From the sequence record MN445184: DNA of 64,000 bases; one strand, given 5' to 3'. How positions within the stretch are numbered: position 1 is the first letter of the stretch; each line of letters begins with the position of its first letter. Origin of the DNA: Escherichia phage vB_EcoA_4HA11. The notes below the pieces were generated by a model. The model ran no database searches. It worked only from the letters and a program-made list of their open reading frames with translations, and was not told where the DNA came from. A program made the position numbers and the translations under genes. Below, one piece after another: positions 14,909 to 23,915 of this stretch.

Positions 14909-17323
14909 TTAGATTTTGACTTCTTTTTCAGCCAGTTCGGCAGTGACGGTGTATTTCACCCCATCAACTTCCACATCCATAGTGGATTCTTCCAAATCCA
15001 GGTCGGTAAACCAACCATGGCCTGCAACAATCCCATAAACTACCTTGGACAGCGTTTTGTTCAGGGCGCGGACTTCGTTGATAGCTGCTTTTGCTGCGTC
15101 TCCGATCCAACTTTCGATCAGCTTTTTCTGAGTCTCTTCCGGTACGCTGGTGATCATCGGTGATTTAACGAATGCATTGTATTCAGCCAGGGCATTAGCG
15201 ATCAGCTGATCAGCGACATTCAGTTTTTTACCGTCCGTCTGTTTTTTGATAACAGACGCGATGCTCGGCAGTGAAGATGCGCCTTTGATTTTCACATTCA
15301 ATTCACGACTCATATAGACATCGGTTGATTCTACAGAAGAAGTCTTCGGTGAAAATCCATAGTCGCGAATGCCGTTTGCTGACAGGAAATCAGCCGCTTC
15401 TTTGCCATATTTTGAAGCCAGACCAGTAGCGTTGCCTTTACCAACCAGTTCATCACGGTAGAATTTCAGAACTTTTTGCTTTGCCTTCAATGCTTCACGG
15501 CGCACATTGTCTGCAAAGAATTCAGCAGCACTGATATTCTTTGTCATGGCGCGGTTAACCATTGGGACACTTTCCAGATTTACAATGAAGACTTCCGGCC
15601 CACCAAACACATGAACACCCATGGCAGTCAAATCCTGTGCCACCTTAGCCCGAACAATCGGAGAATCTGCAGTGATAGGCATTGTTTTCAGGTTGATGAT
15701 ACCATCCTTGACAATAGTGTAATTGCGATAACGCCAGGTTCCCAGCTCTTCAGGAAGTTCATATTTCTTCTGTACAAACTCAGGCACAACAACCGTTCCG
15801 TGTTGAACTGTCTGCACACTGATGTTAGGACGTTCTGAATTGTAGACCAAATTGCTGATCGGGACAATCCCTTTATCATCTGCTGGATTGAATTCGGGGG
15901 TCCAATCTTCGTGCTCGGCCAGTTTGAGCGCCAGGGCTTTACGCTCTTCTTTAGAAGTCGCATTCGCAATCTCTTCGGCCAACTTGTCTTCGGTGTCATC
16001 AACTTTCTGTACAGTACCGCGCCCAATGCTCTTGTAAGAGAATAGCGGATGCTTGGTGACGATAGAGACATCGGCTTCGGCCAGGTAGGTCAAAACATCA
16101 ACAATGGTCGTTGCATCTTCAGCCGGAACCATATTATAATCGATGCCATCAACTCCTCGCAGAGATTCGTCTACGATAGCCTGAGTCAGATCGACTTTGA
16201 TGTTGGAATAGTCCTGCTTGGTGAAACAGTTGCTGTACTGTTTGATGAAGTGGACGTCACCCGTCTTCTTCAGCGCGGCCCAGACCAGATCGGCGTCCAT
16301 GGTATACACGCCGTAAAATGCCAGCACGTATGCCGCTTGGATGTCTGCCAGATTATCCAGCTGGTCGATCATGTTGGGGTTTACAACCCACAGCTGAGAA
16401 ACGCTTTCAGGGATGCTGACGTGGCCAATAGGGTGCTCTTCATCAGGATGCACAGCTAAAACAGTCGCCACGCCATTTTCAACATAAATGGCATGGGTAT
16501 AAACCAGAGGAACATCGACTACAACTTTCGGTGAAGAAGTTTTCAGCACGTTTTCCAATTCGGTCTGATATTCATTCTGGCCTTCGGCGAATACGTGGGT
16601 CGCACCAGAACGTTCTGCCATTAGCGCCAGCAGTTCGCGATTACAATACCAACCGTATTCGATGAAGGTAATGTTATCAAACGCTTTGGGCAGTACTTCA
16701 GCGGCATCCAGGATTTCATTAGAACGCCAGCAGTTGTCATATCCGTCGGTCATGAATGCCAGGTTGTTAACATAACCAGGTTTATTCAGGCTAATGGCAG
16801 TTTCCGCAGCCAGTTTCAGCGGCTCAACAAAACCAGTACAACCAGAAGGCTTCAGGAAACGGTCAATTAGATTATTGATCTCACTGAGGTCGGTTGCACT
16901 GTTAATCTGACGTCCGGCAAATACCGTTCCGAAATCACCGCGAGATGAAAAGTAAAGGATGCTCACAGTATCTTCCGGTTTCACCAGGGAAGGCAGGTTC
17001 TCCTTCAGATGCTTACGGACTTCTGGAAGTGAACGATACATGGAACCGGAGATATCCACAACGATTACATGGTTAGACGGCGCGACGGTCGCAACCGCAT
17101 TCTTAAATGTTAATGATTCAATCATCGTTTTGACCTTTTTGGGCTTTGGAGTGTGTTTGGAGTTCGCGTCGGCGTTCTCCAGCATAGTTTCAATGAAATC
17201 CCGGTTGTTTTCCATTTGGGCGACCAGAACATCACTGGGACGGAATGAATTGTCAAGACAATCAAGTCCGGCGCGTTTTAATTTGTTGTCGGTCATCAGG
17301 CTCTCGTGAGTTATATTTCCCAA
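14909..17323 (-). CDS. von Willebrand factor A (vWA) domain protein
   Basis: MIDAS-like VVVDISGSMY motif, downstream ...FMTDGYDN; track start is TTG, likelier ATG 17296 with GAGAG SD. Confidence 0.65.
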   Translation of the reverse strand: MGNITHESLMTDNKLKRAGLDCLDNSFRPSDVLVAQMENNRDFIETMLENADANSKHTPKPKKVKTMIESLTFKNAVATVAPSNHVIVVDISGSMYRSLPEVRKHLKENLPSLVKPEDTVSILYFSSRGDFGTVFAGRQINSATDLSEINNLIDRFLKPSGCTGFVEPLKLAAETAISLNKPGYVNNLAFMTDGYDNCWRSNEILDAAEVLPKAFDNITFIEYGWYCNRELLALMAERSGATHVFAEGQNEYQTELENVLKTSSPKVVVDVPLVYTHAIYVENGVATVLAVHPDEEHPIGHVSIPESVSQLWVVNPNMIDQLDNLADIQAAYVLAFYGVYTMDADLVWAALKKTGDVHFIKQYSNCFTKQDYSNIKVDLTQAIVDESLRGVDGIDYNMVPAEDATTIVDVLTYLAEADVSIVTKHPLFSYKSIGRGTVQKVDDTEDKLAEEIANATSKEERKALALKLAEHEDWTPEFNPADDKGIVPISNLVYNSERPNISVQTVQHGTVVVPEFVQKKYELPEELGTWRYRNYTIVKDGIINLKTMPITADSPIVRAKVAQDLTAMGVHVFGGPEVFIVNLESVPMVNRAMTKNISAAEFFADNVRREALKAKQKVLKFYRDELVGKGNATGLASKYGKEAADFLSANGIRDYGFSPKTSSVESTDVYMSRELNVKIKGASSLPSIASVIKKQTDGKKLNVADQLIANALAEYNAFVKSPMITSVPEETQKKLIESWIGDAAKAAINEVRALNKTLSKVVYGIVAGHGWFTDLDLEESTMDVEVDGVKYTVTAELAEKEVKI

Positions 17324-17446: not shown

Positions 17447-18319
17447 TTATTTAAAGGAGTCTACAATGGATTTGAAAATATAATCTTTGGAGCGTTGTTG
17501 TACCGGGAGTTCTCCATACGGAACCATGCAAGGGTGTTGCTTGGTCTGAGGGTCTTTGACTGGGCCATACACCCATCCCTCAGCCTCCTTCTCCGCCATC
17601 CAGCTCTCATGCGATTCGCTGGGCTTACGATCACCAGTGAGATGGAAGATAACACCTTTGCAAGCGCTCTCACGCTGCCAGGCCGGAGATTGTTCCCAAG
17701 GCAGTTGAGAGTCGTCACCAACAGACTTGCAGTATGCGCGGTTGGCTTCATGACAAATCTTGGCGATGCGCAGAACCAATGGCGAATAAGTGAGATCGAG
17801 TTTGGAGTTGGCGCGCAGGAAATCACTAACAGCCTTACGAGATTTGGCGTTGTGAGAGTCAACAACAAGTTCCATGTCATCCGGCCCACAAACGAAAGAC
17901 GCCAAGAAGCGCTCGCCATTTTCCGCTCTGAACATCACGTCCTGAATCATCACATTGAAGCCGAGGTGATAGGCCGGGCAGAGGGCGCTACGTTCAACAG
18001 CGTATTGATCGATCCGGATCTCTGCCGTTTCCGTGGCTTTGGCCAACAGATCTTGTTCAACAAGCGCCCGGTACGCCTCCAGCTGCCACAGCTGGTCGAA
18101 GGTGTTATTGTAGGAAATCTCTTTGCCCAGGGCTTCATCGAAGTTGGCCGGGTCTATGGATGTGCTGGGCTTGGTGCCGTGAACGACGAAGCCGTTATCC
18201 ATCTTGAAATGACAAGTGATAGCCCGGTGACCGCCGACTTCGCGGTCTTCGTAAATCACCTCAGCGATATGTGACTTCAGGACTTCAGGAGTGAGTTTGA
18301 TGCCAGTACGAGTTGTCAT
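17447..18319 (-). CDS. two-domain protein: N-terminal phage Gp49-like domain, C-terminal RyR-like domain
   Basis: N-term ITCHFKMDNGFVVHG...NFDEALGKEI...LEAYRAL; C-term HESWMAEKEAEGWVYGPVKD...PCMVPYGEL resembles RyR-domain signature. Confidence 0.5.
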   Translation of the reverse strand: MTTRTGIKLTPEVLKSHIAEVIYEDREVGGHRAITCHFKMDNGFVVHGTKPSTSIDPANFDEALGKEISYNNTFDQLWQLEAYRALVEQDLLAKATETAEIRIDQYAVERSALCPAYHLGFNVMIQDVMFRAENGERFLASFVCGPDDMELVVDSHNAKSRKAVSDFLRANSKLDLTYSPLVLRIAKICHEANRAYCKSVGDDSQLPWEQSPAWQRESACKGVIFHLTGDRKPSESHESWMAEKEAEGWVYGPVKDPQTKQHPCMVPYGELPVQQRSKDYIFKSIVDSFK

Positions 18320-18714: not shown

Positions 18715-18745
18715 AAAGAAACCCCGCACACGGCGGGGTTGCTCA
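18715..18745 (-). terminator. rho-independent terminator
   Basis: CCCCGC-CGUGU-GCGGGG hairpin followed by UUUCUUUU on minus strand, directly abutting the next gene's RBS. Confidence 0.5.
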
Positions 18746-18761: not shown

Positions 18762-19133
18762 TTATTTCAGGAGTTTTTCCAGTTCTTCAACAGAGAGACC
18801 TTCCAGTTCCTGCTGTTTCTTACGCTGGATCAGTTCCATGATCGCCTGGTTATTCGCTTTACGTTCGGCGGCGGTTGCGCTTTCGTCACGTTCTTTCAGT
18901 TTAACACCGATGATCGCTTTCACGATATCGAAACGCAGTTGTAACTGAGAGTCGACTGCGCTTTTCACGCCGATGAAATCTTCTTCATCGCTGGCGGCTT
19001 CCTTCACCTGACGGCTGAGGTCTTTCGCCAGTTCGTTTAGGGCATTCAGGTTCAGATCCCAAACCTGCTCAACAGACAGCAGACCTTTGTTAGAGTTGAA
19101 ACGCAGTTTTAAACGGGTTGCTTGATCAAACAT
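18762..19133 (-). CDS. hypothetical coiled-coil protein
   Basis: 123-aa ORF. Confidence 0.45.
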   Translation of the reverse strand: MFDQATRLKLRFNSNKGLLSVEQVWDLNLNALNELAKDLSRQVKEAASDEEDFIGVKSAVDSQLQLRFDIVKAIIGVKLKERDESATAAERKANNQAIMELIQRKKQQELEGLSVEELEKLLK

Positions 19134-19170: not shown

Positions 19171-21189
19171 TTAGAAAATGACTTTTACAGTACGGTTAAA
19201 CGCGCCGGACACTTTGACGAACACGTGGTTGCGTTGCGTCGTCGAGAATCCCAGACCGGACAGTTGGTTTTCATTCGGCTGGACTTTCATTTTACTACCC
19301 AACATTTCAAAAACCTTACGATGTTTATCCAGTTCCGGCTTCAGATATTCGTTGTAGAAACCACGAGTACCTTCAGGATTAGCACAGCCTTCAAGAATGA
19401 AGAACACGTGCTTGTTGCCTGTCTGCTCGCCATCCCAATGGTTTGGTGAATTCAGGACCAGCTGTACTTTCTGGAAGGTCGCAGTCTTGATACCCCAAAC
19501 TTCTTTAGACTTATCAACATTAGCCAGTTCGGACTTAATGCCAACAACTTGTTTGTCTTTAACAGTCAGGATGACTGCAGTGATACGCCCCTGATCTTTC
19601 AGGCCAGGATGGCTGAAACGATGCGTTGCGCCTTTGTATTCTACTTCGACTTCAAACCCTTCGTCGATTTTTTCACGTTGATTGTAGTTGTGGATTTCGA
19701 AACGGTATTCACCATCGCGCAGCTTGCTTTCATCTGTAAAGATGATATTTTCCACCGGGGCGCGGTTTGGATCAATACCATCCATACCGTTCATATCGAT
19801 ATCCAGATGGGCACCTGTCATAGAGCGGCGATCACGGAAGTAAACGTGCTCCATGTTGTTGAACATATGCAGATCGAGGTCGTCGTTGTTGTGCCACGCC
19901 AAGGAAACGCGCAGATACCCGTCAACTTTACCACCAGCAGCCTTTACACGTTCTTTAATGGAATCGGTCACTTCACCGTTGTAAGACCAGGAGAAACCGT
20001 TGTTCCACTTGAACAGGTTAGGCGCATCTGGGTTCGCCGGAGCAACCAGGGACATCAGGTTGCTAGTATGAGAATTCTCTACAAGCACTTCCATTGAATG
20101 CGCTTTTGGCAGAACATTGCTCAGGAAATCATCAACGCTGATCTCTTCAACTTTTTCCAGGGATTTGGTCGGAGTTTTCACTTCGGCGGCCAGCTGTGCA
20201 AACGGATCCATCGCTTTCTGAGCGGCCAGATCTGCGAACAGAACGTTGTTGATTGTCAGATCATCGTAAACCGCATAACGACGCGCCAGTGAGTCTTCCA
20301 AACCCAGAGCAATAACTTCTTTCTGAGCGTTTTCGATCATGGATTTTGAAACCAGCGCTGTCGGACGTTTGTAGTTCGCCGGAGCAACTTTGGATTCAAA
20401 CGATTTAACAGCCTTTTCCAGTTCCACGCCTTCGCTGATATCTGTCAGCAGAGTGCCGATAACTGTGTTGCGGATGCCGTGTGGAACATGATTGTTTGAA
20501 CGGTATCCAGTATGCCACGCCCACAGAGAACGGGCTGATTCGGGGACTTGTTCATATGCCTTTTTGGTTTCAACAAATCCCTTCACTGCTGCTTTGTGTT
20601 CTGCGCCGCGATACAGAGAATTCTGGTCAATCAGTTCCAGAACGATTTCAGCTGATTCCAGAGTAATTTCACGCAGACCGCGTTCAAACAATTCAATAGC
20701 CTGGCGAATTTCACCTTTTTTCGAAGCGATTGCGTCCGGACGCAGAACATAGCTACCAAGTAATTGGGTATGGAAATGATTGTAAGTACGGATTTTGCCA
20801 TCTTCACCAGATTCGTGATTGTGAGACAGGCCGACTTTGGCAGAATCGTTAAAATAAACATCGACGATTGCGTGTTGTTTGACATACGCGGAAAGAGCCG
20901 CAGCCACCACGTCATATTCATTACCCAGATCAATGTTGTCCCAGATAGAAATTACGTTCAGTTCTGAATCGATGGTGACAACACCGCCGATGTTACGGAT
21001 GAATTGTTTACAGCAGGTGCAATCGTGTTCAGTACGTTCGCGGTACAGCGGGTTAGTACCAGCAGGGAAAGATGCCAGATACAGATCCCAAAGAGCATCT
21101 TTATCGATATTGGTCATGAACAGACCAGTTGCGGACATCGCCAGCACGTTGTTATTAACTGCCGTTGCGAAGGGTTTGAATTCTGCCAT
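19171..21189 (-). CDS. large hypothetical protein (672 aa)
   Basis: Long uninterrupted ORF; no motif I can assign by eye. Confidence 0.55.
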   Translation of the reverse strand: MAEFKPFATAVNNNVLAMSATGLFMTNIDKDALWDLYLASFPAGTNPLYRERTEHDCTCCKQFIRNIGGVVTIDSELNVISIWDNIDLGNEYDVVAAALSAYVKQHAIVDVYFNDSAKVGLSHNHESGEDGKIRTYNHFHTQLLGSYVLRPDAIASKKGEIRQAIELFERGLREITLESAEIVLELIDQNSLYRGAEHKAAVKGFVETKKAYEQVPESARSLWAWHTGYRSNNHVPHGIRNTVIGTLLTDISEGVELEKAVKSFESKVAPANYKRPTALVSKSMIENAQKEVIALGLEDSLARRYAVYDDLTINNVLFADLAAQKAMDPFAQLAAEVKTPTKSLEKVEEISVDDFLSNVLPKAHSMEVLVENSHTSNLMSLVAPANPDAPNLFKWNNGFSWSYNGEVTDSIKERVKAAGGKVDGYLRVSLAWHNNDDLDLHMFNNMEHVYFRDRRSMTGAHLDIDMNGMDGIDPNRAPVENIIFTDESKLRDGEYRFEIHNYNQREKIDEGFEVEVEYKGATHRFSHPGLKDQGRITAVILTVKDKQVVGIKSELANVDKSKEVWGIKTATFQKVQLVLNSPNHWDGEQTGNKHVFFILEGCANPEGTRGFYNEYLKPELDKHRKVFEMLGSKMKVQPNENQLSGLGFSTTQRNHVFVKVSGAFNRTVKVIF

Positions 21190-21285
21190 GGTATAGTCTT
21201 CCTGTTTCAGTTCAAAGTGAGCGCCCTTATCGGGGCGCGTCGTTAAAGTGAGGTCAATATACGCTGAAAAGATTTATTGAAAAGT

Positions 21286-21693
21286 TTAAACGGGAATCAT
21301 GTTTACTCGAATACTTCTGAACCGTTTCCCGTCATAACTGGTGTAACCAACAACCGTAACTGATCTTGTTCCCTTTGGATAACCCTTTGGAGTACTCACA
21401 ACGCGCACAGGGCGCTTGCTTTCTTTATCGTATTTCGAAATCAATTTCAAAAGATGTTTATCGATCTGGCTTAAACTATCACCATACACGGTATATTGAT
21501 ATTGCTCGCAATTACCCAACAAAATGATAAATTTATAAATTTTGTCGACCAAAGATCGACATTTTGGATCATCATAATGATGCCGACAGACTTGACATTC
21601 ATATTTCCCAGTATTCATGTTGAACAATTTTGTCGCCCGACTTGAACACGCTGGGCATACTTTCCATGAACGATGATGTTTTACGGGTTTCAT
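21286..21693 (-). CDS. zinc-ribbon hypothetical protein
   Basis: CPACS...CQVCRHH cysteine pairs. Confidence 0.4.
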   Translation of the reverse strand: MKPVKHHRSWKVCPACSSRATKLFNMNTGKYECQVCRHHYDDPKCRSLVDKIYKFIILLGNCEQYQYTVYGDSLSQIDKHLLKLISKYDKESKRPVRVVSTPKGYPKGTRSVTVVGYTSYDGKRFRSIRVNMIPV

Positions 21694-22916
21694 TTTTTCA
21701 TCTTCTCTAACAGATTAATAGAACGAACGGGAGTCTTCTGTAATGGCTGATTAACTTCACCACCATTATACCCCACCTTTCCTCGAGGTTTCTCCCCGCG
21801 CATCACCGCCTCAACGCAGCGGGTATATTTCTGAAGTTCACAGAACATGTTCTCCAACTGCATAACATTCATGCAACGGTCTTCCGGTTCTTCTGCCGAC
21901 CAAAATTCATTACGTTTATACCCGTACTGAGCGAACAATTGATCTTGATGATCACGAACCCAGAATATGCATTCTTCATGCGTCATGCCGTCCTTGTCCA
22001 AAAATAACAGATCGATACCAGCACGGCAACCTGGACCAGCGATAGTGAAGTGGTTTTCACTGAATGGATATTCATCGATGTATGTAAAATCAACCCAAAT
22101 CTGGTATGCCAAGAATGGTCCAAGCCCCTCAATGTCGTCATACATCGCCTGGTAAACAGAGTCGGGACGGCTAAATTCCCTGAGGCGATCAAAGTAATGA
22201 GGGTGTTTGTTGACGAATGCCTTCAAAGAGCGGATGACTCGCATCGGCATGTATGGTTCCCAGCCTTCTATTTTGTATTCACCAGGATTATCTTCGGCCA
22301 GCTTCTTGGCAACCTTGTAATCCATTTCATCTATAACACCGCCAACCCGATGGACTTTTACCTTCATGCCGCCAAAGCGTTGCTCCTTGTGGTTGACAAC
22401 TAGTTCAGGGAAAGCCAGGCATTGTTTCAGACCGCCTGTATTAAACGCATTGGTGAAAACTTTGCCACCTTTAGATTCGAATTCCTGAAGAACATCTCGA
22501 CACCATTCAAGATTTATGTTTCCGAATTCTTCGATCGTCCATGGACCACCCAAAGCCTGTATAGGTTCCCACATGTTGTACATTCGGAACAATACACAGT
22601 TGAACATTTTGTCAGATAGCGTGAGATCCTGATCGAGGATGATATTATTGATCAAATTTCGAGACTGCCTATCGTGCTCTCTCCGCACGTTACAAAACTT
22701 GACTTGGCGTAATACCGGATTATCCGTCCATGGCGCTGGAAGGCATTGCACGTCCTTCTTGACATGTATCGCATAACGATCCCTCATCCATTCATATGCC
22801 AGCTGGCGGTGGAATGAACTTAACATAGGATGGGCTGATTTGATTTTGGTTTCACGGACACCGCAATATGGGATGTCATGTGGTTTATCTTTCATGGTAT
22901 CCTCTCTAGAATACAA
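21690..22916 (-). CDS. hypothetical protein (408 aa), possibly enzymatic
   Basis: Long ORF, 4-bp overlap with downstream gene. Confidence 0.5.
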   Translation of the reverse strand: MYSREDTMKDKPHDIPYCGVRETKIKSAHPMLSSFHRQLAYEWMRDRYAIHVKKDVQCLPAPWTDNPVLRQVKFCNVRREHDRQSRNLINNIILDQDLTLSDKMFNCVLFRMYNMWEPIQALGGPWTIEEFGNINLEWCRDVLQEFESKGGKVFTNAFNTGGLKQCLAFPELVVNHKEQRFGGMKVKVHRVGGVIDEMDYKVAKKLAEDNPGEYKIEGWEPYMPMRVIRSLKAFVNKHPHYFDRLREFSRPDSVYQAMYDDIEGLGPFLAYQIWVDFTYIDEYPFSENHFTIAGPGCRAGIDLLFLDKDGMTHEECIFWVRDHQDQLFAQYGYKRNEFWSAEEPEDRCMNVMQLENMFCELQKYTRCVEAVMRGEKPRGKVGYNGGEVNQPLQKTPVRSINLLEKMKK

Positions 22917-22964
22917 AAACAGAGGCCATTATAGCCTCTGTTGTTTAGTGAATAACGGATTATA

Positions 22965-23915
22965 TTAATCGAAGCGAGAGAGGTGTGTCACAGTGTTTTG
23001 AACAGGTGCGCACGCGTATACACGAACATTAGCACCCCACACCCCACACAGCTTAGGCATATTGGTATCGTTAATGATATACGCTGGCACATAACTTTCA
23101 ATTTGGCCGTTAACATCTACGGGTCGAGAAGATTTTTCAACTGCCATAGAAAGAATTACTTCCAACGTTTTTGGAGATACCAACGCCACGCCGTTCATAT
23201 CATCAACAAATACCTGACCTTCTTCAATTGCCATGCTGGCAACGATGTCATTGATCTGACGGGAAGGGGTATTCGTCAGCATATCAGAGAAATCAGGCTC
23301 TTTGAACACAGCCATGTTTTTCAGGAATTTTCCTTTCGGATATTCTTTGCCATTCCACATCACAGTCTCATTCACTTTGATGCATGCCTGAGGGAATTCA
23401 CCTTCAACGCGTAACTGGCCATCTGGGAAACCGCGTGAATAATAATATTCCAGTGCCGGACCGACTTCATCTTCTGAGCGAATAAATTTGCTCATGTTAG
23501 AGGCAAACACACGTTGTAAACATTCATCACCATTAAAACCAGCGATATGGGCCACGCCGTCATTAACAGTTGTGATATCACCCTGAGCGTCCATGATGGC
23601 TTTCAGGATTTTATCCATATCAACATCATCGGTGTCTTCTTTTGGAGTTGCCACCAGCTCAAGTTTGATGTCATGATCGAAATAAGCCGCTTCCAGTAAT
23701 TCGCGGGTCTCTTCCAGAACCAGTTTGGCCTGATTGCGAATTTTACCGAAGTCAGGGGCTGTAATATATCCAGCCGCATTACCAAAAGCCAAATTCAATC
23801 TCACGTTTTTATTAAATGTAGTTGTCATAATATAGCGACTCCAGTTATTCGCTTTTTGCCCGACTTGGGCGAATAGTGTATTTTGGAACCAATTTCCACT
23901 CAGAAACTTGGTCAT
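22965..23915 (-). CDS. hypothetical protein
   Basis: 316-aa ORF; true start may be the internal Met at about 23828. Confidence 0.45.
   Translation of the reverse strand: MTKFLSGNWFQNTLFAQVGQKANNWSRYIMTTTFNKNVRLNLAFGNAAGYITAPDFGKIRNQAKLVLEETRELLEAAYFDHDIKLELVATPKEDTDDVDMDKILKAIMDAQGDITTVNDGVAHIAGFNGDECLQRVFASNMSKFIRSEDEVGPALEYYYSRGFPDGQLRVEGEFPQACIKVNETVMWNGKEYPKGKFLKNMAVFKEPDFSDMLTNTPSRQINDIVASMAIEEGQVFVDDMNGVALVSPKTLEVILSMAVEKSSRPVDVNGQIESYVPAYIINDTNMPKLCGVWGANVRVYACAPVQNTVTHLSRFD

What the first reader, a model, noticed from the sequence alone, without database searches (positions are those of the whole stretch)
19171..22916. Two large ORFs of unknown function between the replication block and the RyR gene
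The 672-aa and 408-aa proteins (plus a zinc-ribbon protein between them) have no motifs I can assign, yet are long, uninterrupted and tightly packed. If the phage is Ackermannviridae-like, that family is known to hypermodify thymidine, so these are worth testing as DNA-modification enzyme candidates. This link is speculative.
Basis: inference. Interest (0 to 1): 0.45.

Follow-up and report, generated by a model that had tools for sequence, protein, structure and literature searches.

The report
Known thymine-modification gene beside unrelated orphan pair
The shorter ORF is the already-published ViI gp160-type protein of the thymidine hypermodification gene set, while the longer ORF has nothing to do with that pathway and instead forms, with a small gene just outside the flagged interval, a very widespread two-gene phage module whose function nobody has described.

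Summary
The window is a Kuttervirus (Ackermannviridae), 99.9% identical to Salmonella phage S117 and 99.4% to CBA120. All three ORFs are real, conserved genes.

- **408-aa ORF.** The true start is the ATG at 22895, giving 401 aa. It matches Pfam PF18723 (HMUDK_hel, formerly aGPT-Pplase1; E 1.7e-83). It is the syntenic ortholog (78% identity) of ViI gp160, one of five proteins whose mixed lysates made 5-NeOmdU. Its own reaction is still unassigned.
- **672-aa ORF.** It belongs to Pfam DUF8224: about 4,500 50%-identity clusters, found in phages of many families. It is always followed by a ~130-aa helical partner (window 18762-19133) in 69 of 69 divergent loci. gp160, MazG and the clamp genes accompany it in only 1 of 69. 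A Dickeya phage deleted DUF8224 and its partner together while keeping gp160. So it is not a hypermodification gene, and its function remains unknown. Only one domain has a recognisable fold, which is TerD-like.
- **Zinc-ribbon ORF.** It is an accessory gene found only in Ackermannviridae and is absent from ViI.

Overall the finding is ordinary. Its interesting residue is the uncharacterised DUF8224-partner module.

The parts
21690..22895 (-). Ortholog of ViI gp160 (401 aa). HMUDK_hel / aGPT-Pplase1 family, a helix-hairpin-helix (HhH) glycosylase-like protein of the 5-hmdU thymidine hypermodification gene set.
22918..22942 (-). Terminator-like hairpin (11 bp stem plus T-run) between the MazG-like gene and the gp160-ortholog gene. 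It marks the upstream edge of the local transcription unit.
   Evidence: Consensus scan; sequence read directly.
21286..21693 (-). 135-aa CxxC...CxxC zinc-ribbon protein (phrog_16119). An Ackermannviridae-only accessory gene, overlapping the stop of the gp160-ortholog gene by 4 bp.
   Evidence: ORF. Sub-threshold Pfam zinc-ribbon hits and phrog_16119. Found in 80 phage records, all Ackermannviridae, in the same position wherever inspected. Window 21282-21759 is replaced by 105 bp in ViI.
19171..21189 (-). DUF8224 protein (672 aa). Multidomain: N-terminal alpha/beta domain, helical domain, small alpha/beta domain, inserted TerD-like beta-sandwich (about residues 420-560), and C-terminal alpha/beta domain.
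18762..19133 (-). Obligate ~130-aa helical partner of DUF8224 (123 aa here; phrog_2018; no Pfam family).
   Evidence: Found by tblastn next to DUF8224 in 63 of 69 divergent loci, mostly directly downstream, and in 69 of 69 loci by clustering. Also paired in bacterial genomes. Alignments A3 and A4.
18720..18740 (-). GC-rich terminator-like hairpin directly after the partner gene; the downstream edge of the unit.
   Evidence: A terminator is annotated at the same relative position after the partner gene in phiCbK.

Best explanation
The flagged interval is not one functional block. It holds three unrelated items that share a transcription unit in this phage lineage.

(1) 21690-22895 encodes the ortholog of ViI gp160, a member of the HMUDK_hel / aGPT-Pplase1 family. 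This is an all-helical, DNA-glycosylase-like (helix-hairpin-helix, HhH) protein that travels with the 5-hmdU DNA kinases and the amino-acid:DNA transferase (ADDT, i.e. Pplase2) of thymidine hypermodification. Shown: family membership, orthology, fold and genomic association. Inferred: it flips 5-hmdU or 5-phosphomethyl-dU out of duplex DNA and uses an invariant Glu-x3-Cys-Glu motif like the transferase. It would then be a second, accessory reaction on the phosphorylated intermediate rather than a required step in making 5-NeOmdU. My preferred guess is that it resolves the intermediate to a different product, for example thymine. I give about 0.5 that it is catalytic, and about 0.2 for the thymine-forming version.

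(2) 19171-21189 together with 18762-19133 is a self-contained two-gene module, DUF8224 plus a ~130-aa helical partner. It moves between unrelated phages and a few bacterial genomes and is independent of hypermodification. Shown: the strict pairing, the breadth of distribution, the joint loss, and a TerD-like beta-sandwich inserted into an otherwise unrecognisable core. Inferred, weakly (about 0.25): it is a nucleic-acid-binding or end-processing accessory factor working alongside ligases and RNA-repair enzymes, acting as a heteromer with its partner. The residues shared with the short relatives are mostly Arg, His and aromatics, with no universal acidic triad.

(3) 21286-21693 is an Ackermannviridae-specific zinc-ribbon accessory gene, translationally coupled to the gp160 ortholog and dispensable for the modification.
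For: Identity of the phage.

gp160 ortholog:
- Pfam hit; ViI orthology and the gp numbering via the orf00xxx notes; literature (PMC5889632, PMC8989533).
- Fold.
- Clustering with kinase and ADDT in Vibrio phage D504 and in Ab18.
- Per-genus record counts for gp160 and gp247 relatives are identical or nearly so: Salmonella 164/164, Vibrio 62/62, Klebsiella 45/45, Serratia 10/10.
- E348, C352, E353 and K356 are invariant down to 26% identity. The transferase has invariant E243, T244 and C247, which the literature shows are metal ligands and the catalytic Cys. The best hhalign path puts the two motifs in register.

DUF8224 module:
- Family size; host range.
- Partner linkage 63/69 and 69/69, against 1/69 for gp160, MazG and the clamp genes.
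- Joint deletion in Dickeya phage XF4.
- Bacterial pairs.
- TerD-like domain and its absence from the short relatives.
- Repair-type neighbours: RtcB...HD_4-RlaP in Bradyrhizobium; HD_4-RlaP again in L069; polynucleotide kinase plus ligase in Bosa; a ligase of some kind within 8 kb in roughly 20 of 76 loci.

Transcription unit.

Zinc ribbon.
Against: gp160 ortholog:
- Purified kinase, gp247 and gp226 suffice for 5-NeOmdU in vitro, so gp160 has no demonstrated reaction (PMC8989533).
- Pfam now calls the family a kinase 'helical domain', which fits a non-catalytic role equally well.
- The thymine-forming idea rests on my recollection of phiW-14 biochemistry, not on a tool result.

DUF8224:
- No neighbour other than the partner is conserved. 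RlaP, RtcB and HD occur in only 3-4 lineages, and no background rate was measured for the ligase proximity, which may just reflect the general clustering of accessory genes in large phages.
- The CxxC motif and the acidic residues near it are not universal.
- There is no hit in Pfam, NCBIfam, PADLOC or the PDB by sequence, and only unnamed proteins in BFVD.
Confidence: 0.75

Rival explanations
1. One reading: the 672-aa and 408-aa proteins, with the zinc-ribbon protein, together form a thymidine-hypermodification gene cluster.
For: They lie in one terminator-bounded unit in Kuttervirus, next to a MazG-like pyrophosphatase. The 408-aa member really does belong to the pathway's gene set.
Against: DUF8224 is abundant in phage groups with no gp160-family hit among the leading genera. 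gp160 is near DUF8224 in 1 of 69 divergent loci. Dickeya phage XF4 keeps gp160 and MazG but has deleted DUF8224 and its partner. The Vibrio D504 and Ab18 hypermodification clusters contain no DUF8224. ViI lacks the zinc-ribbon gene.
Confidence: 0.05
2. The gp160 ortholog is a non-catalytic DNA-binding or targeting subunit of the 5-hmdU DNA kinases (the sense of Pfam's name 'kinase helical domain'). It would set which 5-hmdU residues are phosphorylated, and so produce the roughly 40% partial modification.
For: The domain is fused to the kinase in SP10 gp186 and lies directly after the kinase gene, with a 1-nt overlap, in Ab18. It does not appear among the purified enzymes with which PMC8989533 reconstituted the 5-NeOmdU steps.
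Against: The SP10 kinase domain alone is active. The family keeps an invariant Glu-x3-Cys-Glu-x2-Lys motif and an RREHDR motif over wide divergence, which looks like an active site.
Confidence: 0.3
3. DUF8224 is a DNA-directed RNA polymerase, as annotated in GenBank for Klebsiella phage BIS47 and Salmonella phage FrontPhageNews.
For: Two GenBank records carry that product name.
Confidence: 0.03
4. DUF8224 and its partner form a Ter-like stress or superinfection-exclusion device: a Ca2+-binding TerD-type sensor domain working with the nearby vWA protein, as TerD does with TerY/TerF in bacterial Ter systems.
For: A TerD-like beta-sandwich is the only recognisable domain. A vWA protein lies 1.8 kb away in the window. 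PP2C or vWA genes occur near the module in L005 and in Armatimonas. Ter components are known in large phages (PMC7824862).
Against: The vWA gene accompanies DUF8224 in only 1 of 69 divergent loci. There is no Pfam TerD hit. The short relatives lack the sandwich altogether, so it is an accessory insert and not the core.
Confidence: 0.1

Closest known systems
Salmonella phage ViI gp160 (Vi01_130c, YP_004327501; 'aG/PT-PPlase1', Pfam PF18723 HMUDK_hel)
   Same: 78% identity over the full length and the same genomic position between the MazG-like gene and DUF8224. Same Pfam family. The host genome is 99.4% identical in this region to CBA120, a phage reported to carry 5-NeOmdU.
   Different: Divergent C-terminal tail. 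In this window it is followed by a zinc-ribbon gene that ViI lacks. No biochemical role is known for either protein.
Amino acid:DNA transferases (ADDT, i.e. aGPT-Pplase2, PUGT, DADT; PF18724): ViI gp247, M6 gp51, PaMx11 gp46 (PDB 8z2m)
   Different: No significant sequence or profile similarity. It is not needed for serine or glycine transfer in vitro (PMC8989533). It carries a roughly 100-residue insert with a beta-hairpin (residues about 150-215). It is not a member of PF18724.
QNG1 / DUF2419 queuosine-salvage N-glycosylase and HhH DNA glycosylases (AlkA, Nth, OGG)
   Different: 8-12% identity; no evidence of glycosylase chemistry; no catalytic Asp/Lys signature was tested.
TerD / SCO6318 tellurite-resistance Ca2+-binding beta-sandwich (PDB 2kxt, 2qz7), and weakly Pfam DUF2135
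   Different: 9-13% identity and no Pfam TerD hit. It is one inserted domain of a 672-aa protein whose other four domains match nothing solved, and it is absent from the short relatives.

Membership tests
HMUDK_hel / aGPT-Pplase1 (Pfam PF18723) | Match to the family HMM above the curated threshold | tested here: met
   280.7 bits against a cut-off of 25, E 1.7e-83, covering profile positions 5-278 of 281.
HMUDK_hel / aGPT-Pplase1 (Pfam PF18723) | All-helical, helix-hairpin-helix DNA-glycosylase-like fold | tested here: met
HMUDK_hel / aGPT-Pplase1 (Pfam PF18723) | Co-occurrence with 5-hmdU DNA kinase and ADDT in the same genome | tested here: met
   Within the 64-kb window the other four ViI genes are absent, because they map outside it. 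ViI carries HMUD2 kinase, ADDT and the PLP enzyme. The genus counts for gp160 and gp247 relatives coincide. Clusters are seen in Vibrio D504 and Ab18.
HMUDK_hel / aGPT-Pplase1 (Pfam PF18723) | A defined biochemical activity on 5-hmdU or 5-PmdU DNA | not testable with these tools
   None is reported in the papers read. It needs enzymology.
Amino acid:DNA transferase, ADDT (Pfam PF18724) | Match to the family HMM, or significant profile similarity | tested here: not met
   No PF18724 hit even at E<=10. BLASTP E 0.17. hhalign probability 0.1% and 0.8%.
Amino acid:DNA transferase, ADDT (Pfam PF18724) | Metal-binding Glu-Thr plus catalytic Cys (E243/T244/C247 in PaMx11 gp46) | tested here: inconclusive
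   The gp160 family has invariant E348-x3-C352 with the same spacing on the last long helix. It aligns in register only in a non-significant hhalign path. No coordinate superposition was available.
DUF8224 (Pfam PF26675) | Family HMM match | tested here: met
   The model is missing from the local Pfam copy, so the test is indirect. The 97%-identical cluster representative, all 119 other listed homologs but one, and the relatives on contigs carry precomputed PF26675.
TerD family (tellurium resistance) | Sequence membership (Pfam TerD) and the paired Ca2+-binding motifs | tested here: not met
DNA-directed RNA polymerase (GenBank label on DUF8224 orthologs) | A polymerase catalytic domain or fold | tested here: not met
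Zinc ribbon (135-aa ORF) | Two CxxC knuckles; match to a zinc-ribbon family | tested here: inconclusive
   C13-x2-C16 and C33-x2-C36 are present in the translation. The Pfam Zn_ribbon_SprT and IS1595 hits score 18 bits against cut-offs of 25-28.

The most novel reading that the evidence does not exclude
DUF8224 plus its ~130-aa partner is a previously undescribed, self-contained two-component phage system. It spans about 4,500 50%-identity clusters, in myo-, sipho- and podoviruses of Proteobacteria, Firmicutes, Cyanobacteria and Bacteroidetes, and in a few bacterial chromosomes. Its core fold is not represented in the PDB, and its function would be new, for example an RNA/DNA-end-handling or counter-defence activity. 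Separately, the gp160/Pplase1 family may be a second Cys-dependent enzyme acting on 5-phosphomethyl-dU in DNA, for example the unidentified activity that yields ordinary thymine and so sets partial modification.
Probability: 0.35. Interest if true: 0.65.

Novelty: already known. Interest (0 to 1): 0.38.

Why it matters
For the finding as posed it matters little. The link between this gene and thymidine hypermodification was published in 2018, and the phage is nearly identical in this region to ones whose DNA was analysed.

Two residues are worth keeping:
- The Pplase1/HMUDK_hel family still has no assigned reaction eight years on. It is co-inherited with the transferase and keeps what looks like the same Glu/Cys catalytic pair. 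Knowing its reaction could explain why only about 40% of thymines are modified.
- DUF8224 and its partner form one of the larger conserved phage gene pairs with no literature. A strict 2-gene linkage across unrelated phage families gives a clear handle for experiments.

Tried and rejected
- Sequence searches that returned nothing useful for the 672-aa protein: Pfam, NCBIfam, PADLOC, PDB by sequence and by profile.
- BFVD Foldseek gave only unnamed viral proteins. The afdb50 fold library was not available.
- No paper mentions DUF8224, PF26675 or PF18723.
- For the partner protein, Pfam and PDB profile searches gave only noise: tRNA ligase E 0.1, KTI12, RPA_C.
- I tested whether the small ORFs following the short DUF8224 relatives (PaBG, Bosa, Moabite) are partner homologs. 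They are not.
- I tested for consistent RNA-repair or NAD neighbours (RtcB, RlaP, HD_4, RNA ligase, ADP-ribosylglycohydrolase, NAMPT, PP2C). Each occurs in at most 1-10 of 76 loci, so there is no firm association.
- I considered a tRNA or structured RNA inside the region, because two GenBank records show only 'tRNA-Thr' under the match. ARAGORN and Rfam found nothing.
- I considered the zinc-ribbon ORF as a remnant of the homing endonuclease that sits at the same spot in Dickeya phage XF4. There is no similarity.
- I tried to show homology between gp160 and gp247 by BLASTP and hhalign. It was not significant.
- The supplement of PMC8989533, which holds the lysate drop-out figures, and two reviews (PMC5062991, PMC11163837) were not held.
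Full report
**Origin of the window.** Megablast of 19171-22916 finds 215 phage records. The best are Salmonella phage S117 (99.9%) and Escherichia phage CBA120 (99.4%), genus Kuttervirus, family Ackermannviridae. Lee et al. 2018 report that ViI and its relatives, including CBA120, carry 5-(2-aminoethoxy)methyl-dU (5-NeOmdU) (PMC5889632).

**Checking the observation.** The ORF table reproduces the three ORFs at the stated coordinates.
- The 408-aa ORF begins at a TTG that sits in the T-run of an 11-bp terminator hairpin (22942-22918).
- Twenty-one bases downstream there is an ATG (22895) preceded by AGAGAGGA.
- CBA120 annotates the 401-aa form, and ViI starts at the same Met. The gene is therefore 21690-22895.
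- All three ORFs have many homologs, so none is a chance ORF.

**The 401/408-aa protein: identity.**
- It matches Pfam PF18723, 'HMUDK_hel, 5-hmdU DNA kinase helical domain', at E 1.7e-83. GenBank annotators still call the same family aGPT-Pplase1.
- It is 78% identical over its whole length to ViI Vi01_130c, which lies at the same position between the MazG-like gene and the DUF8224 gene.
- The ViI record's notes (orf00160, orf00226, orf00243, orf00247) match the 'gp' numbers and accession numbers used by Lee et al.. So Vi01_130c is gp160.
[quoted passage not shown] It was one of the five lysates (gp67, gp160, gp226, gp243, gp247) that together converted 5-hmdU DNA to 5-NeOmdU.

**The 401/408-aa protein: what is known of its role.**
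- In the 2021 follow-up, the steps were reconstituted with purified enzymes: the kinase (gp67/gp243), the serine:DNA transferase (gp247) and the PLP-dependent decarboxylase (gp226).
- gp160 appears only in the recap of the five-lysate mix and is not in that paper's table of characterised proteins.
- A 2026 paper still assigns a function only to 'Pplase2'.
- The gene is thus a known member of the pathway's gene set with an unknown reaction.

**New evidence gathered here on the gp160 family.**
- *Sequence relation to the transferase.* None is detectable between the gp160 family and the transferase family. The published 'paralog' relation is therefore remote.
- *Genomic association.* This is strong.
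  - tblastn with gp160 and with gp247 gives identical or nearly identical per-genus record counts: Salmonella 164/164, Vibrio 62/62, Klebsiella 45/45, Serratia 10/10, Shigella 6/6, Erwinia 4/4.
  - In Vibrio phage D504 the order is HMUD2 kinase, ADDT, two small ORFs, HMUDK_hel.
  - In Pseudomonas phage Ab18 the order is ADDT, FAD oxidoreductase, GNAT acetyltransferase, P-loop kinase, HMUDK_hel, thymidylate-synthase-like.
- *Possible active site.*
  - The family keeps invariant E348, C352, E353 and K356 on its last long helix, even in the 26%-identical Ab18 protein.
  - The transferases keep E243, T244 and C247. These are the metal ligands and the essential cysteine.
  - The top, non-significant hhalign path places the two motifs in register.

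I therefore think the protein is more likely catalytic than not (about 0.5). It would act on flipped-out 5-hmdU or 5-phosphomethyl-dU.

One concrete possibility is that it resolves the phosphorylated intermediate to a product other than O-serinyl-thymine, for example thymine. That would explain three things:
- two related enzymes co-occur;
- modification is partial, about 40%;
- gp160 is not needed to make the hypermodified base.

The precedent, that thymine in phiW-14 DNA arises post-replicatively from hydroxymethyluracil, is from my memory of the older literature and was not checked here. The rival view, a non-catalytic targeting domain for the kinase, fits the SP10 fusion and the Pfam name. 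It remains plausible (about 0.3).

**The 672-aa protein: family and structure.**
- Local Pfam, NCBIfam, PADLOC and PDB-sequence searches are empty. PHROGs places it in phrog_1735, of unknown function.
- Homologs in the large protein database carry precomputed PF26675, which the contig look-ups name DUF8224. No paper in the library mentions it.
- The family is large and uniform: 4,493 50%-identity representatives at E<=1e-3 and 1,237 at E<=1e-30, almost all about 670 aa.
- In the annotated phage collection it occurs in 558 records. These span Ackermannviridae, Vequintavirinae, phiCbK-like Caulobacter phages, Bacillus myoviruses, N4-like podoviruses, Microcystis LMM01 and Cellulophaga phages. 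Shortened relatives occur in several jumbo phages and Xanthomonas siphoviruses.
- The AF2 model (pLDDT 84) has five domains.
- Four members weakly hit DUF2135, which shares the DLDLH-type acidic motif.
- The shortened relatives (PaBG gp013, Bosa gp06, Moabite 254) lack exactly this sandwich. It is therefore an inserted accessory domain.
- The residues invariant across both long and short forms include Arg, His, Tyr and Trp residues alongside hydrophobic, Gly and Pro positions.
- The CxxC and the neighbouring acidic residues are not universal. This argues mildly for a binding protein rather than a metal-dependent enzyme.

**The key result for the 672-aa protein is its context.** I collected 80 viral contigs plus other loci and asked which window genes accompany DUF8224 where its identity to the window protein is below 60%.
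- The 123-aa ORF just downstream (18762-19133, phrog_2018) is found by tblastn in 63 of 69 such loci, usually 9-80 bp after the DUF8224 stop on the same strand.
- gp160, MazG, RegA, the clamp loader, vWA, RyR and DUF3268 each appear in at most 2 of 69, and the zinc ribbon in none.
- All-against-all clustering of every ORF in these loci recovers the partner in 69 of 69.
- No other real gene family exceeds 12 loci. The intermediate clusters are antisense shadow ORFs inside the DUF8224 gene.
- The pair also occurs in bacterial assemblies.
  - In Bradyrhizobium sp. Tv2a-2 the order is RtcB, DUF8224, partner, HD_4, RlaP.
  - In Armatimonas rosea the order is ADP-ribosylglycohydrolase, DUF8224, partner.
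- In Dickeya phage XF4, a Limestonevirus in the Ackermannviridae, a single deletion removed three things:
  - DUF8224 residues 90-672;
  - the whole partner gene;
  - the start of the next gene.

  gp160, MazG, RegA and the clamp loader remain intact there.

Together these results separate DUF8224 from hypermodification. They show that DUF8224 and its partner are gained and lost as a unit.

**What the DUF8224 module does is not established.**
- Neighbours beyond the partner vary. Repair-type genes recur:
  - RtcB, HD and RlaP in Bradyrhizobium;
  - HD and RlaP again in the diverged contig L069;
  - polynucleotide kinase plus ligase after the short form in Bosa;
  - a LigD-phosphoesterase-like ligase in three lineages;
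  - ATP- or NAD-dependent ligases in others.
- Some kind of ligase lies within 8 kb in roughly 20 of 76 loci. I did not measure a background rate, and the loci are not phylogenetically independent.
- I therefore put only about 0.25 on a nucleic-acid end-handling or repair-accessory role.
- The GenBank label 'DNA-directed RNA polymerase' on two orthologs has no support.
- A Ter-like role with the nearby vWA protein is unlikely, because the vWA gene is not co-inherited.

**The zinc-ribbon ORF.**
- It is a CxxC-x16-CxxC protein.
- It is found in 80 records, all Ackermannviridae (Salmonella, Klebsiella, Escherichia, Serratia and Dickeya phages), at 68-100% identity. Where inspected, it sits in the same position, adjacent to the gp160 ortholog.
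- In ViI, the 478 bp carrying it are replaced by 105 bp. In XF4, a homing endonuclease occupies the spot.
- It is therefore a lineage-variable accessory gene at an insertion hot spot and is not needed for 5-NeOmdU.

**Local organisation.** Terminator-like hairpins at 22942-22918 and 18740-18720 bracket the run gp160-ortholog, zinc ribbon, DUF8224, partner. A terminator is also annotated right after the partner gene in phiCbK. The shared transcription unit is a Kuttervirus arrangement and not evidence of shared function.

**Verdict.**
- The novelty of the finding as posed is nil.
- The worthwhile leftovers are the unassigned chemistry of the Pplase1 family and the strictly paired, very widespread, uncharacterised DUF8224 module.

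Noticed in passing
This implies a frameshift or a sequencing error in the reference genome.
   Followed up: no
L098:3600-4920 (Dickeya phage XF4): A deletion fuses DUF8224 codon ~89 to the middle of the DUF3268 gene, removing the partner gene. A homing endonuclease (F-LimVI) sits between the gp160 ortholog and the DUF8224 remnant, at the spot where this window has the zinc-ribbon ORF.
   Followed up: partly
window 22965-23915 (-): MazG-like pyrophosphatase (phrog_2144) directly upstream of the gp160 ortholog. The mechanical 316-aa ORF overlaps the RegA ORF, and CBA120 annotates a shorter 289-aa form. It could be the dTTP/dUTP-clearing enzyme that 5-hmdU phages need, but this was not tested.
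   Followed up: no
window 21190-21285 (-): The 96-bp spacer between the zinc-ribbon gene and DUF8224 contains a GC-rich hairpin (GCGCCC-CGATAA-GGGCGC) followed by a weak T-run. It was not called by the terminator scan. It may be an attenuator or an RNA processing site.
   Followed up: no
window 14909-17323 (-) and 17447-18319 (-): A large vWA-domain protein (804-aa mechanical ORF; 738 aa in CBA120) and a fusion of an N4-gp49-like domain with an RyR domain lie just downstream. The RyR gene region is poorly conserved with ViI: only 249 bp align, at 73%.
   Followed up: no
L092:6543-11939 (Bradyrhizobium sp. Tv2a-2, AXAI01000008) and L094:6622-11105 (Armatimonas rosea): The DUF8224-partner pair occurs in bacterial assemblies. 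In one it sits inside RtcB ... HD_4 - RlaP (an RNA-repair-type set, probably a prophage). In the other it follows an ADP-ribosylglycohydrolase among ordinary chromosomal genes.
   Followed up: partly
L102:2693-6730 (Vibrio phage D504) and L103:2251-6917 (Pseudomonas phage Ab18): In these phages HMUDK_hel genes are clustered with the kinase and ADDT, unlike the dispersed arrangement in Kuttervirus. In Ab18 the kinase and HMUDK_hel genes overlap by one base, echoing the SP10 gp186 fusion.
   Followed up: yes
GenBank records MW021754, KY652726, PP889490, PP889479, and protein P0326: Likely misannotations are propagating. DUF8224 is labelled 'DNA-directed RNA polymerase'. The feature lists under the gp160-ortholog match in two Klebsiella phage records include 'terminase small subunit' (the ortholog has a weak phrog_800 hit). 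A gp160 homolog of Klebsiella virus vB_KpnM-20 (P0326) is named 'phospholipid-lipopolysaccharide ABC transporter'.
   Followed up: partly
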